DNA of 1,081 nt from Naegleria gruberi (Eukaryota). Positions 1-1,081 of this stretch are shown one piece after another. Below the pieces are notes generated by a model, which saw nothing but the letters and a program-made list of their open reading frames with translations, made no database searches and had not been told where the DNA came from. The first letter of the stretch is position 1, and every line of letters begins with the position of its first letter. The DNA lies in NCBI GenBank assembly GCA_000004985.1, contig GG739575.1; one strand, 5' to 3'. The position numbers were made by a program, and so were the translations under genes.

Positions 1-78
1 TCATTGGCATTCCATTTGTTTCTTAATTTCCTTAATTTTCTTATTGTAAACATCCACCATCAATACTTCCTTATTCAT
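1..78 (-). CDS. Small K/E-rich ORF MNKEVLMVDVYNKKIKEIKKQMECQ (25 aa) with stop TGA at 1-3. The same frame is open back to GTG 166-168 (55 codons, VLEPQLSLLREDLKVVDLKTNREIKKYFDS…) and overlaps the end of the long ORF in the +1 frame.
   Basis: ATG is the reverse complement of 76-78. The frame contains in-frame repeated EIKK/REIKK motifs, encoded by the recurring tcttaatttc 10-mer at 21-30 and 93-102 plus cttaatttt at 31-39. There is no convincing RBS (only AGAGA / TAAGAAAT upstream). The stop lies exactly at the window edge. It could be a small protein, or the displaced C-terminus of the upstream gene after a frameshift. Confidence 0.3.
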   Translation of the reverse strand: MNKEVLMVDVYNKKIKEIKKQMECQ

Positions 79-136
79 CGAATCAAAATATTTCTTAATT
101 TCTCTATTTGTTTTCAAATCAACAACTTTCAAATCT

Positions 137-883
137 TCACGCAGCAGAGACAATTGTGGTTCCAGCACCTACAGCTGCTGCACTAAGAAGAAGATTTGAT
201 TTCCTAGTTGTTTTGAATTCACAAGAGGTACTCCTTTTAAAATTCATTCTGTCAGAATATTTTGGGTGAATTGTGATTTCTGTACTGGATTCCTCTTGTT
301 TTACTTCTTTCTTTGATGAATCACCAGCAGATTCTACTATTTCCTCTTGTTTGATTGTTTCAAATTCTCTTGGTTTAGTTTCGTCCTGATTTGGAGATTC
401 TTGTTCAGAAGGTGGGATGACATCTAATTGCTGTTTTACAAAATCAATAGTTTTTTCTAATAAATCATTAGATGTTTCCTTGACTGACTGTAAAGCAGAT
501 TGTAAAGTTTCAGAATTTGAAACTTTAGAATATTGAGCAGAAACTTCTTGTTTTCCATTCTCAAACAATTCACCACCCTTTTCCATTAAATTATTTGACA
601 TCTCCTTCACAGATTGTAAAGTAGATTGCATAGCTTTAGAATTTACTATTTTTGCAAGTATTTGTTTTTTATATTCAATGTCATGACCAATAGTTGTAAT
701 TGATACAATATTTGTAAATATATCAAACAGAGAATTACTTTCGGAATGATCGGTTTCAGCACTTGCTTGATGAACGAAAATTCCTCCAAGAAGGAAAAAT
801 AACAGTAAAATTACGAGAATTCGTATTTGCATTTTTTTAAAAGAATTTTTAAATTGAAATTCCAAATGTTTACAATAACTCAT
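137..883 (-). CDS. Hypothetical secreted protein, 248 aa from ATG 883 or 231 aa from ATG 832. It has an N-terminal signal peptide, a duplicated 19-aa helical motif, an acidic low-complexity linker and an uncharged hydrophobic C-terminal tail.
   Basis: This is the longest ORF in the window (747 nt) and its stop is TGA at 137-139. There is no in-frame TAA or TAG across 248 codons of AT-rich DNA, which argues for real coding. The translated N-terminus has a classic n-h-c signal (MQIR + ILVILLLFFLLGGIFV + HQASA) with an AXA cleavage site before E43. Codon usage is coherent and AT-biased. The start is ambiguous: ATG 881-883 gives a 20-aa charged n-region, while ATG 830-832 (MQIR...) begins directly at the signal peptide and is preceded by an A-rich tract. 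Neither ATG has a GGAGG-like RBS. Confidence 0.72.
   Translation of the reverse strand: MSYCKHLEFQFKNSFKKMQIRILVILLLFFLLGGIFVHQASAETDHSESNSLFDIFTNIVSITTIGHDIEYKKQILAKIVNSKAMQSTLQSVKEMSNNLMEKGGELFENGKQEVSAQYSKVSNSETLQSALQSVKETSNDLLEKTIDFVKQQLDVIPPSEQESPNQDETKPREFETIKQEEIVESAGDSSKKEVKQEESSTEITIHPKYSDRMNFKRSTSCEFKTTRKSNLLLSAAAVGAGTTIVSAA
269..415 (-). other. Low-complexity acidic linker (aa 157-205): PPSEQESPNQDETKPREFETIKQEEIVESAGDSSKKEVKQEESSTEITI.
   Basis: The translation is rich in E, Q, S, K and P with no hydrophobic core. This is typical of a disordered spacer between a folded or helical domain and a C-terminal anchoring or sorting element. Confidence 0.5.
452..634 (-). repeat. Intragenic duplication: two copies of a 19-aa motif (AMQSTLQSVKEMSNNLMEK at aa 84-102, encoded by 578..634; TLQSALQSVKETSNDLLEK at aa 126-144, encoded by 452..508), offset by 42 aa.
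   Basis: The two motifs align without gaps at 13/19 identities, with conservative substitutions (M/L, T/A, N/D). At DNA level the 12-mer cagattgtaaag recurs at 496-507 and 610-621 on the plus strand. The copies differ at synonymous sites (tct gtg aag gag vs tca gtc aag gaa). This points to an old duplication kept at protein level rather than a recent DNA repeat. Confidence 0.6.
758..832 (-). other. Signal-peptide coding segment (aa 18-42 of the long ORF). Predicted SPase I cleavage is after Ala-Ser-Ala, between 758 and 757.
   Basis: Translation is MQIRILVILLLFFLLGGIFVHQASA followed by ETDH. It has one basic residue, a 16-aa hydrophobic core, a helix-breaking GG, and A-S-A at -3/-1. There is no Cys lipobox. 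Confidence 0.6.
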
Positions 884-965: not shown

Positions 966-1081
966 TTAGAATTGAAAGGAGGCACCCTGAAGGAACATTT
1001 GTAACATGTCTTCATTGGAAAGGAATGGATCAAAATTATCTGAATCGCAATTAGTTGTTGGACTCTCTAACAACTGAATGT
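966..1081 (-). CDS. Probable C-terminal fragment of an upstream minus-strand gene entering from the right edge (…IQLLESPTTNCDSDNFDPFLSNEDMLQMFLQGASFQF*), with stop TAA at 966-968.
   Basis: The minus-strand frame is open for 37 codons from the window edge to TAA (reverse complement of 966-968). The other two minus frames in this stretch stop within 5-10 codons. The peptide has protein-like composition. This would place three same-strand genes in series with an 82-nt spacer before ATG 883. A random open frame of this length in AT-rich DNA has a chance of roughly 5-10%, so this is only suggestive. Confidence 0.35.
   Translation of the reverse strand, partial: IQLLESPTTNCDSDNFDPFLSNEDMLQMFLQGASFQF
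975..982 (+). promoter_or_regulatory. Perfect Shine-Dalgarno-like AAAGGAGG on the plus strand without a start codon at functional spacing.
   Basis: GGAGG at 978-982. The nearest downstream ATG (1006) is 23 nt away. No ATG, GTG or TTG lies 5-12 nt downstream in an open frame (TTG 999-1001 is followed at once by TAA). On the minus strand the same bases encode G-A-S-F of the edge ORF, so the motif may be coincidental. Confidence 0.2.
1006..1077 (+). CDS. Candidate small ORF MSSLERNGSKLSESQLVVGLSNN (23 aa) on the plus strand. It is mutually exclusive with the minus-strand edge fragment.
   Basis: ATG 1006-1008 is preceded by AGGA (991-994) at an 11-nt spacing, and the stop is TGA at 1075-1077. 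It is short and overlaps the putative minus-strand coding frame. An ORF of this length is common by chance. Confidence 0.15.
   Translation: MSSLERNGSKLSESQLVVGLSNN

What the first reader, a model, noticed from the sequence alone, without database searches (positions are those of the whole stretch)
137..883. Secreted repeat protein ending in an uncharged Ala/Gly/Thr-rich hydrophobic tail with no recognisable sorting motif
The architecture is signal peptide, then a duplicated amphipathic-looking Q/S/K/E motif, then a disordered acidic linker, then KRSTSCEFKTTRKSN followed by LLLSAAAVGAGTTIVSAA and the stop. The tail is the last residue block of the protein. It carries no basic stop-transfer residues, no LPXTG, no PEP/GlyGly-type motif and no lipobox. 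A small-residue stretch followed by an uncharged hydrophobic terminus is the layout of a eukaryotic GPI-attachment signal. In a bacterium it would instead be an uncharacterised C-terminal anchor or sorting tag. Either way it is an unusual, testable cell-surface protein.
Basis: partly seen in the sequence, partly recalled or inferred. Interest (0 to 1): 0.5.

Follow-up and report, generated by a model that had tools for sequence, protein, structure and literature searches.

The report
Naegleria orphan surface protein, doubtful C-terminus
The window is a tiny scaffold of the amoeba Naegleria gruberi carrying a species-only gene for a secretory-pathway, probably membrane-anchored protein; its odd "tail" is an ordinary eukaryotic anchor segment and probably not the true end of the protein, because coding sequence seems to continue one base out of frame past the annotated stop.

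Summary
ORF 137..883 (-) encodes a signal peptide, a duplicated helical motif, an acidic disordered linker, a basic patch and an 18-residue Ala/Gly/Thr-rich hydrophobic end.

The window is the whole 1081-bp scaffold of Naegleria gruberi, a eukaryote. The protein is the annotated "predicted protein" NAEGRDRAFT_77138. It has no homologue among about 5.8 billion proteins except a rearranged near-identical copy in one metagenome contig (L001). That rules out a bacterial sorting tag.

The eukaryotic GPI-signal layout is present, with omega S201-T-S, a 10-residue spacer and an 18-residue tail. But the annotated stop is suspect:
- The 45 codons right after it, in the +1 frame, are stop-free and look as coding as the gene body, up to a TGA at the last base of the scaffold.
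- The tail itself is clearly coding in frame 0.
- The last sense codon, GCG, never occurs among 59 Ala codons of neighbouring genes.
- The other scaffold end shows three 1-nt homopolymer differences against L001.

Most likely reading (0.45): a one-base indel, which would make this a type I membrane protein with a 45-residue charged cytoplasmic tail. Main rival (0.3): the stop is genuine and the protein is GPI-anchored. L001 places an Ifi-6-16 domain just downstream, but the tail resembles that family only in composition.

Either way it is an ordinary, uncharacterised orphan, of low interest.

The parts
137..883 (-). Open reading frame as deposited. 248 aa from ATG 883 and 231 aa from ATG 832. 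This is NAEGRDRAFT_77138 / XP_002667952.1 / D2W6U4, 'predicted protein' of Naegleria gruberi.
758..832 (-). Signal peptide, aa 1-25: MQIRILVILLLFFLLGGIFVHQASA. The inferred cleavage is after A-S-A. ATG 832 has an A-rich context (aaaaaaATG). ATG 883 lies only 82 nt after the upstream gene's stop.
   Evidence: Sequence features and KD profile. No trained signal-peptide predictor was available, so this is inference.
578..655 (-). Repeat copy 1 (aa 60-85, AKIVNSKAMQSTLQSVKEMSNNLMEK), inside a predicted long helix.
452..529 (-). Repeat copy 2 (aa 102-127, SKVSNSETLQSALQSVKETSNDLLEK), 42 codons downstream of copy 1.
248..403 (-). Acidic, predicted-disordered linker or stalk (aa 144-195). It carries two in-frame 3-nt indels and two amino-acid changes relative to the near-identical contig L001.
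194..247 (-). Basic juxtamembrane patch (aa 196-213, MNFKRSTSCEFKTTRKSN). It holds the only well-placed GPI omega candidate, S201-T202-S203.
140..193 (-). Uncharged Ala/Gly/Thr-rich hydrophobic segment LLLSAAAVGAGTTIVSAA (aa 214-231). It is coding in frame 0: AT at third positions 0.83 against 0.31 at positions 1 and 2. It is only marginally hydrophobic (best 19-residue KD window 1.46).
137..139 (-). Annotated stop codon TGA, probably created by a one-base indel. The preceding codon GCG (142-140) is used 0 times among 59 Ala codons in the training genes. Removing G140 gives GCT GCT GAA GAT TTG AAA, all common codons.
   Evidence: codon counts. The indel itself is inference.
1..138 (-). The +1 frame continuation, EDLKVVDLKTNREIKKYFDSMNKEVLMVDVYNKKIKEIKKQMECQ, followed by TGA at 3-1, the last bases of the scaffold. 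It is coding-like and is inferred to be the cytoplasmic tail of the same protein.
966..1081 (-). 3' end of the upstream neighbouring gene (...LESPTTNCDSDNFDPFLSNEDMLQMFLQGASFQF*). In L001 this is a two-exon Zn2Cys6-type gene. It is not part of the finding but fixes the genomic context.

Best explanation
This is a lineage-restricted (orphan) Naegleria gruberi gene for a protein that enters the secretory pathway and is held at a membrane by the Ala/Gly-rich hydrophobic segment.

From N- to C-terminus the protein has:
1. a cleavable signal peptide;
2. a helical ectodomain containing a 42-codon tandem duplication;
3. an acidic disordered stalk;
4. a basic patch;
5. the 18-residue hydrophobic segment.

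The deposited stop codon directly after that segment is most likely the product of a one-base insertion or deletion at about window 139-140, in the poor-quality end of a 1081-bp scaffold. In the real gene the frame would run on for 45 more codons (EDLKVV...KKQMECQ*).

The 'tail' would then be the transmembrane segment of a single-pass type I membrane protein with a short K/E-rich cytoplasmic tail. It would not be a terminal sorting signal.

Shown here: the ORF, its blocks, the duplication, the eukaryotic origin, the lack of homologues, the coding-like +1 frame and the frame-0 coding of the tail.

Inferred: signal-peptide cleavage, membrane insertion, the indel, the topology, and any function (probably a surface or endomembrane protein of the amoeba).
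For: - Origin and orphan status. The only hit among 5.77 billion proteins is the 100% self-hit from N. gruberi, on a contig of 1081 bp. An exhaustive phmmer search of 1.84 billion representatives adds only P0002, a rearranged copy in metagenome contig L001.
- No family or fold match: Pfam, PDB fold search.
- Coding continues in the +1 frame after the TGA.
  - There are 45 stop-free codons (55 counting back to position 168).
  - The codon log-odds is 0.33 per codon, against 0.28 for the gene body and at most 0.21 in 30 false ORFs.
  - With a model trained only on L001 genes it is 0.36 per codon, against 0.19 for the held-out body. That total of 16.0 bits compares with a median of 11.4 and a maximum of 17.9 for true-coding 45-codon windows.
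  - Under a Markov-1 null, the frame is stop-free in 0.8% of trials, and only 1.1% of those reach the observed score.
  - The opposite-strand ORF 4-183 scores -0.24 per codon.
- The tail is coding in frame 0. GC sits at 3 of 18 third positions against 25 of 36 at the other positions, p = 2.8e-4. So the frame switch falls within a few bases of the TGA.
- In the 10 codons before the stop, the +1 frame would need CTG three times (5% of Leu codons) plus CGT and GTG. Frame 0 uses common codons apart from the final GCG, which is 0 of 59.
- Scaffold ends are demonstrably unreliable. Window 1062-1081 differs from the near-identical L001 by three single-base homopolymer deletions within about 20 nt of coding sequence.
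Against: - No read, transcript or orthologue shows the corrected sequence. L001 lacks window 1-251 altogether, and two metagenome scans found nothing.
- The codon model rests on only about 1100-1300 training codons.
- A shadow ORF on the + strand (108-266) also reaches 0.24 per codon, so the statistic is not clean.
- The hydrophobic segment is weak for a transmembrane helix. Its best 19-residue KD mean is 1.46, below the classical 1.6 threshold.
- The charge distribution is the reverse of the positive-inside expectation for a type I protein: +4 before the segment and 0 in the 15 residues after it.
- Weak hydrophobicity with a polar or basic spacer before it is exactly what a GPI signal looks like.
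- AlphaFold on the corrected 276-aa protein was uninformative (pLDDT 40).
- The putative error lies 139 nt from the scaffold end. The demonstrable errors lie within 20 nt of the other end.
Confidence: 0.45

Rival explanations
1. The stop codon is genuine and the protein is GPI-anchored. The transamidase would cleave at about S201, remove the 30-residue propeptide (TS + CEFKTTRKSN + LLLSAAAVGAGTTIVSAA) and attach a GPI lipid. The result would be a lipid-anchored helical surface protein on an acidic stalk. The coding-like +1 frame downstream would be chance, or the still-undecayed remnant of a recent real frameshift.
For: - All textbook elements of a GPI signal are present in the deposited sequence: an N-terminal signal peptide, a disordered region before omega, small residues S-T-S, a 10-residue polar spacer, an 18-residue uncharged and marginally hydrophobic end, and no cytoplasmic residues.
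- The organism is a eukaryote.
- GPI anchoring and the transamidase are described as conserved among all eukaryotes (abstracts of PMC9098846 and PMC10216265).
- A Naegleria pangenome paper reports evidence of GPI-anchored proteins (PMC9928731).
- The low hydrophobicity (KD 1.46 per 19 residues) suits a GPI signal better than a transmembrane helix.
Against: - The coding-grade, stop-free +1 frame starts exactly at the stop.
- The final codon GCG is never used in the training genes.
- With 30 residues after omega and a 10-residue spacer, the signal is at the long end of the usual range (established knowledge, not tested here).
- No trained GPI predictor could be run.
- Presence of the N. gruberi GPI transamidase was not checked here.
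Confidence: 0.3
2. The tail is the first Gly/Ala-rich membrane helix of an Ifi-6-16 (ISG12/IFI27-type, PF06140) domain. On this reading the TGA lies inside a 5' splice site (GC|GTGAAG), and the rest of the domain sits in an exon beyond the end of the scaffold.
For: - In L001, which is near-identical in the shared parts, the sequence right after ...HPKYSD reads GAKLMAMSAVANGGGVAAGSLVSGLQVIGATGAIMSAPVLG on the same strand. That matches Pfam Ifi-6-16 above its gathering score: 39.8 bits against 29.1, E = 4e-10, profile positions 33-70 of 84.
- The window tail has the same Ala/Gly-rich character as the family's first helices in real family members.
- A GT does follow the last full codon.
Against: - Against an HMM built from seven family members, the tail scores 3.4 bits. 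That is no better than its own shuffles (533 of 2000 score at least as high), so the likeness is compositional only.
- Adding the tail to the L001 fragment does not raise the Pfam score: 36.9 against 39.8 bits.
- GTGAAG is unlike the one verified intron of this lineage, GTATGT...TTAACAG.
- The 138 nt after the putative splice site look like coding sequence, not intron.
- In L001 the Ifi frame is out of frame with the upstream ORF (KYSDWC*), and the bases before KLMAM (ttggtgct) do not end in AG.
- No annotated Naegleria protein matches the fragment.
- L001 carries two rearrangements and may be a decayed copy.
Confidence: 0.08
3. A bacterial or archaeal secreted protein with a new C-terminal sorting or anchor tag recognised by a dedicated sorting system.
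Against: - The sequence is a Naegleria gruberi scaffold.
- Its neighbours in L001 are eukaryotic genes: a spliced Zn2Cys6 gene with a GT-AG intron and a PCIF1_WW protein.
- No prokaryotic homologue was found among the 5.8 billion proteins searched with the word index or the 1.84 billion representative proteins searched exhaustively.
Confidence: 0.01
4. The locus is a decaying or non-functional gene (a pseudogene or a young de novo ORF). On this reading neither end matters biologically. The frameshift is real, and L001 shows a further-degraded allele.
For: - There is no homologue outside the species.
- L001 has lost the whole helical repeat region and the C-terminal part, and ends in KYSDWC*.
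- In the shared linker the two copies differ by 4 substitutions (2 of them non-synonymous) and 2 indels in about 128 nt. Across about 350 nt of flanking gene, spacer and signal-peptide sequence they differ by about 2 substitutions.
Against: - There is a clear codon-usage signal through 193 held-out codons.
- Third-position bias persists in the tail.
- The indels in the linker are in frame, and the first L001 junction is also in frame.
- The signal peptide is identical in both copies.
Confidence: 0.1

Closest known systems
Eukaryotic GPI-anchored surface proteins (C-terminal GPI-attachment signal processed by the GPI transamidase)
   Same: N-terminal ER signal peptide. Disordered stalk. Small-residue triplet S-T-S. 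Polar spacer. Uncharged, marginally hydrophobic segment that ends the deposited ORF with no cytoplasmic residues.
   Different: The ORF probably does not end there. The spacer (10 residues) and the propeptide (30 residues) are at the long end of the range. Anchoring is untested. The mature domain shows no sequence relationship to any known GPI protein.
Single-pass type I membrane proteins with short cytoplasmic tails
   Same: After the one-base correction: signal peptide, then ectodomain, then one hydrophobic segment, then a 45-residue charged tail ending in a stop.
   Different: The hydrophobic segment is short (18 residues) and weak (KD 1.46 per 19 residues). The basic residues lie on the luminal side rather than the cytoplasmic side. 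The joined reading frame is inferred, not observed.
Ifi-6-16 / ISG12 / IFI27 family (Pfam PF06140)
   Same: Gly/Ala-rich membrane helices. A bona fide PF06140 fragment lies just downstream of the rearranged copy of this gene in contig L001.
   Different: The window protein has no Pfam hit to the family. Its tail is no more similar to the family than shuffled versions of itself.
Apolipoprotein- or LEA-like amphipathic helical repeat proteins
   Same: Tandem Q/S/K/E-rich helical repeats predicted as long helices. The only faint Pfam echo is ApoC-I at E = 0.21.
   Different: No significant sequence or fold match. Amphipathicity is only marginally above shuffles.

Membership tests
GPI-anchored protein (GPI-attachment signal) | N-terminal ER signal peptide | tested here: met
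   MQIR + a 16-residue hydrophobic core (KD 2.58 per 19 residues) + HQASA|E, which obeys the -3/-1 rule. This rests on sequence rules only, with no SignalP.
GPI-anchored protein (GPI-attachment signal) | Omega site with small residues at omega and omega+2, preceded by a flexible polar region | tested here: met
   S201-T202-S203. The region upstream has pLDDT below 50.
GPI-anchored protein (GPI-attachment signal) | Polar spacer of about 5-10 residues followed by a hydrophobic stretch that is the very C-terminus | tested here: inconclusive
   The spacer CEFKTTRKSN (10 residues) and the 18-residue tail fit the deposited ORF. But codon statistics indicate that the coding region continues in the +1 frame past the stop.
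GPI-anchored protein (GPI-attachment signal) | Positive call by a trained predictor (NetGPI, PredGPI or big-PI) | not testable with these tools
   No such predictor is available offline.
GPI-anchored protein (GPI-attachment signal) | Host has the GPI synthesis and transamidase machinery; the protein is released by PI-PLC | not tested
   Only general literature was found: the transamidase is described as conserved in all eukaryotes (PMC9098846 abstract), and a Naegleria pangenome paper mentions GPI-anchored proteins (PMC9928731). No paper on a Naegleria transamidase was found.
Single-pass type I membrane protein | Signal peptide plus one internal transmembrane helix followed by cytoplasmic residues | tested here: inconclusive
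   This requires the inferred one-base correction. The hydrophobic segment reaches only KD 1.46 per 19 residues, against the classical 1.6 threshold. Flank charges are +4 on the N side and 0 on the C side.
Ifi-6-16 / ISG12 (PF06140) | Match to the Pfam profile at or above the gathering score (29.1 bits) | tested here: not met
   There is no hit for the 248-aa, 276-aa or tail-only sequences. Against a family HMM the tail scores 3.4 bits, and 27% of shuffles score as high. Only the L001 fragment, which is not in the window, matches (39.8 bits).
Bacterial C-terminal sorting signals (LPXTG/sortase, PEP-CTERM, GlyGly-CTERM, lipobox) | Prokaryotic host and a cognate motif | tested here: not met
   The host is Naegleria gruberi, Eukaryota. 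No such motif is present in the sequence.

The most novel reading that the evidence does not exclude
The tail is the first helix of an Ifi-6-16/ISG12-type membrane domain whose remaining exons lie beyond the scaffold end. The gene would then encode a secreted helical domain fused to an interferon-inducible-type membrane module in a heterolobosean amoeba. It would also sit in a structurally polymorphic locus, with L001 as the deletion allele. The adjacency in L001 does not exclude this. It is disfavoured by the shuffle test and by the coding-like +1 frame.
Probability: 0.08. Interest if true: 0.4.

Novelty: new member of a known kind. Interest (0 to 1): 0.15.

Why it matters
The importance is limited.
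- If the stop is an artefact, the public model (XP_002667952.1 / D2W6U4) is truncated by a frameshift. Any GPI call on it would then be a false positive, which illustrates how terminal hydrophobic "tails" can arise on tiny draft scaffolds.
- If the stop is genuine, it adds one candidate GPI-anchored surface protein to an amoeba whose surface proteome is poorly described.
- The gene is species-restricted and apparently fast-changing, with in-frame indels and a deletion variant in a near-identical environmental genome. It may interest people who study orphan or surface-protein evolution in Naegleria.
- It opens no new mechanism.

Tried and rejected
- **Homology.** The word-indexed search of 5.8 billion proteins returned only the self-hit. 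The exhaustive phmmer search of 1.84 billion representatives added only P0002. There was no Pfam family and no PDB fold match. Both AlphaFold models were low-confidence, with pLDDT 54.7 and 40.3.
- **Shared tail in other proteins.**
  - A 72-aa query (tail joined to the Ifi fragment) found nothing at E <= 1e-3.
  - A 159-aa composite (+1 peptide, tail and Ifi fragment) at E <= 10 returned only the self-hit plus seven Ifi-6-16 family proteins, six of them from vertebrates and one unnamed EukProt entry. It returned no Naegleria paralogue and nothing for the +1 peptide.
  - So no family of proteins sharing this tail was detectable with these tools.
- **Extra genomic context.**
  - An exact look-up of P0001 found no contig.
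  - Two scans of JGI metagenome contigs, one by protein pattern and one by a DNA pattern spanning the putative indel with a 0-4 nt gap, found nothing.
- **Intron alternatives.**
  - I enumerated all GT..AG pairs with length 1 mod 3 that would join frame 0 to the +1 frame.
  - Those that remove the tail (231->135 and 222->135) are rejected, because the tail has strong frame-0 third-position bias.
  - The 37-nt candidate 140->104 is rejected as the less likely option, because the strongest +1 coding signal lies inside it (window 138-94) and its splice sites are poor compared with the verified L001 intron.
- **Tail as Ifi-6-16.** Tested by HMM against shuffles and rejected as order-specific similarity.
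- **Other checks.** Rfam found nothing on the window or L001. No paper names the locus tag or accessions, the metagenome project PRJEB11402, or Ifi-6-16 in Naegleria.
Full report
**1. What is in the window**

The minus strand carries one long ORF at 883..137. It is 248 codons from the first ATG and 231 from the ATG at 832.

- A signal-peptide-like start, MQIRILVILLLFFLLGGIFVHQASA|E.
- Two copies of a 26-residue Q/S/K/E-rich motif, 42 codons apart. The protein local score is 82, against 26 +/- 4.6 for shuffles. At DNA level, 453-518 matches 579-644 at 77% identity with 126-nt spacing.
- An acidic stretch at aa 144-195. A single-sequence AlphaFold model leaves aa 139-189 below pLDDT 50, while aa 52-137 form two long helices at pLDDT 70-85.
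- A basic patch, MNFKRSTSCEFKTTRKSN.
- LLLSAAAVGAGTTIVSAA, followed by TGA at 139-137.

**2. Where it comes from**

The only significant hit among 5.77 billion proteins is a 100% identical 231-aa "predicted protein [Naegleria gruberi]", recorded on a contig of exactly 1081 bp. Its accessions are EFC35208.1, XP_002667952.1, D2W6U4 and NAEGRDRAFT_77138. The window is therefore a whole unplaced mini-scaffold of the NEG-M genome.

N. gruberi is a heterolobosean eukaryote. This removes the bacterial "new sorting tag" branch of the interpretation.

No paper in the library mentions the locus.

**3. Relatives**

An exhaustive phmmer search of 1.84 billion representatives adds a single protein, P0002 (112 aa). 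It is encoded on L001, a 4067-bp ENA metagenome contig.

Where L001 and the window align, they differ by only a handful of substitutions plus short indels. L001 therefore comes from the same species or a sibling.

L001 gives the genomic context, all on one strand:
- a PCIF1_WW-domain gene (E = 1e-61);
- a two-exon Zn2Cys6-type gene, whose cysteine motif spans a GTATGT...TTAACAG intron and whose last 35 codons are window 966-1073;
- then our gene.

The L001 copy is rearranged:
- Window 416-719, which holds the helical repeats, is missing.
- It is replaced by an inverted 27-nt piece (window 389-415), and the reading frame is kept across this junction.
- After ...HPKYSD the sequence jumps to unrelated DNA (KYSDWC*).

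There is no Pfam family, PDB fold match or Rfam hit. The gene is a species-level orphan.

**4. The Ifi-6-16 lead**

The unrelated DNA at the end of L001 reads GAKLMAMSAVANGGGVAAGSLVSGLQVIGATGAIMSAPVLG in another frame. This matches Pfam Ifi-6-16 above its gathering score (39.8 against 29.1 bits).

The window's TGA sits in GC|GTGAAG, and the tail is Ala/Gly-rich like that family. I therefore tested whether the tail is the start of such a domain, interrupted by an intron:
- Against an HMM built from seven real family members, the tail scores 3.4 bits. Of 2000 composition-preserving shuffles, 27% do as well.
- Joining the tail to the fragment does not raise the Pfam score.
- No Naegleria protein matches the fragment.

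The resemblance is compositional. I keep this as a low-probability rival and as something noticed in passing.

**5. The C-terminus**

Translating all frames shows that the +1 frame is open from position 168 to a TGA at positions 3-1, the last bases of the scaffold.

I built a codon model from the three L001 genes, with or without the body of the window ORF. The 45 codons right after the annotated stop (138-4, EDLKVVDLKTNREIKKYFDSMNKEVLMVDVYNKKIKEIKKQMECQ) score as follows:

| Measure | +1 frame, 138-4 | Comparison |
|---|---|---|
| Log-odds per codon, full model | 0.33 | 0.28 for the gene body; at most 0.21 in 30 stop-free false ORFs |
| Log-odds per codon, L001-only model | 0.36 | 0.19 for the held-out body |
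| Total for 45 codons, L001-only model | 16.0 bits | median 11.4, maximum 17.9 for true-coding 45-codon windows |

A Markov-1 null built from the region itself is stop-free in 0.8% of trials. Only 1.1% of those reach the observed score. The + strand ORF over the same bases scores -0.24 per codon.

The tail itself is coding in frame 0:
- GC occupies 3 of 18 third positions against 25 of 36 other positions (p = 2.8e-4).
- AT at third positions is 0.83 in frame 0, against 0.29 in the other two frames.

The coding frame therefore changes by +1 within a few bases of the TGA.

Further points bear on the exact site:
- In the last ten codons the +1 frame would need three CTG codons (5% of Leu usage), so the switch is late.
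- The last sense codon, GCG, is used 0 times among 59 Ala codons in the training genes.
- Deleting G140 gives GCT GCT GAA GAT TTG AAA, all common codons.
- The opposite scaffold end (1062-1081) differs from L001 by three one-base homopolymer deletions inside coding sequence. Indel errors at the ends of this scaffold are therefore real.

Introns that could join the frames were enumerated. They are less satisfactory. Those that remove the tail contradict its frame-0 signal. The 37-nt candidate (140->104) would excise the best-scoring part of the +1 region.

**6. Interpretation**

Most likely (about 0.45): the deposited model is truncated by a one-base indel. The gene would encode a 276-aa (from M18) single-pass type I membrane protein, built from:
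- a signal peptide;
- a helical ectodomain with an internal duplication;
- an acidic stalk;
- a basic patch;
- an 18-residue membrane segment;
- a 45-residue K/E-rich cytoplasmic tail.

Weak points of this reading:
- The segment is only marginally hydrophobic (KD 1.46 per 19 residues).
- The flanking charges are inverted relative to the positive-inside rule.
- The training set is small.
- A wobble-sharing shadow ORF reaches 0.24 per codon.
- No independent read confirms the correction.

Main rival (about 0.3): the stop is genuine and the tail is a GPI-attachment signal with omega at S201 (S-T-S, a 10-residue spacer and an 18-residue tail). GPI anchoring is described as universal in eukaryotes (abstracts of PMC9098846 and PMC10216265) and is mentioned for Naegleria (PMC9928731).

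Minor rivals are a decaying gene (0.1), an Ifi-6-16 continuation (0.08) and a bacterial tag (0.01).

**7. Comparison with known kinds, and novelty**

Under either leading reading this is a standard eukaryotic membrane-anchoring arrangement attached to an orphan ectodomain. It is a new member of a known kind. The protein is already in the databases as an uncharacterised predicted protein.

The practical lesson is that the striking "tail with nothing after it" is probably an annotation artefact of a draft mini-scaffold. Interest is low (0.15).

The decisive test is trivial given data I could not reach. Inspect NEG-M genomic and RNA-seq reads (for example PRJEB23822, PMC6142364) at window 135-145, and locate the 3' end of the transcript.

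Noticed in passing
window 966-1081 (-); L001 1567-3529: The window's right end holds the last 35 codons of the upstream neighbouring gene. In L001 this is a two-exon gene whose Zn2Cys6 motif (CX2CX6CX6CX2CX6C) is split by a roughly 100-nt GTATGT...TTAACAG intron. Only 82 nt separate its stop from the first ATG of the studied ORF.
   Followed up: partly
window 1062-1081 vs L001 3411-3435: There are three single-base homopolymer-length differences within about 20 nt of coding sequence at the extreme scaffold end (window AC-ATTC-AGTTG-TTAGAG against L001 ACAATTCAAGTTGTTTAGAG). This points to poor base-calling at the ends of this scaffold.
   Followed up: partly
L001 3941-4067: A fragment of an Ifi-6-16 / ISG12-type domain (PF06140, 39.8 bits) lies in a Naegleria-like environmental contig, directly after the rearranged copy of the gene, and runs off the contig end. 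No annotated Naegleria protein matched it. The nearest hits were Ifi-6-16 family proteins, six of them from vertebrates and one unnamed EukProt entry.
   Followed up: partly
L001 3774-3806 and 3940/3941, relative to window 416-719 and 1-251: L001 is a structural variant. The whole helical repeat region is deleted and a 27-nt inverted copy of window 389-415 sits at the junction, with the frame kept. A second breakpoint after KYSD loses the frame. This could be a real deletion allele or template-switch event, or an assembly or amplification chimera. It is unresolved.
   Followed up: partly
window 252-379 vs L001 3807-3940: The acidic linker differs from L001 by two in-frame 3-nt insertions (QEE-IV-ES against QEEEIVVES), two amino-acid changes (A->T and K->T) and two silent changes. 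The upstream gene end and the signal peptide are essentially identical. The numbers are small, but they hint at relaxed or diversifying evolution of the stalk.
   Followed up: no
window 108-266 (+): A 53-codon antisense 'shadow' ORF overlaps the tail. It shares wobble positions with the real frame and scores 0.24 bits per codon in the codon model. This is a reminder that the codon statistic gives false positives at that level.
   Followed up: yes
L001 1-1482: A PCIF1_WW-domain protein (Pfam PF12237, E = 1e-61) lies two genes upstream on the same strand, cut by the contig start.
   Followed up: no
window 1-3: The +1 frame ORF ends in a TGA formed by the very last three bases of the scaffold. 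This may be coincidence, or the assembly may have stopped just past the gene end. It is not explained.
   Followed up: no
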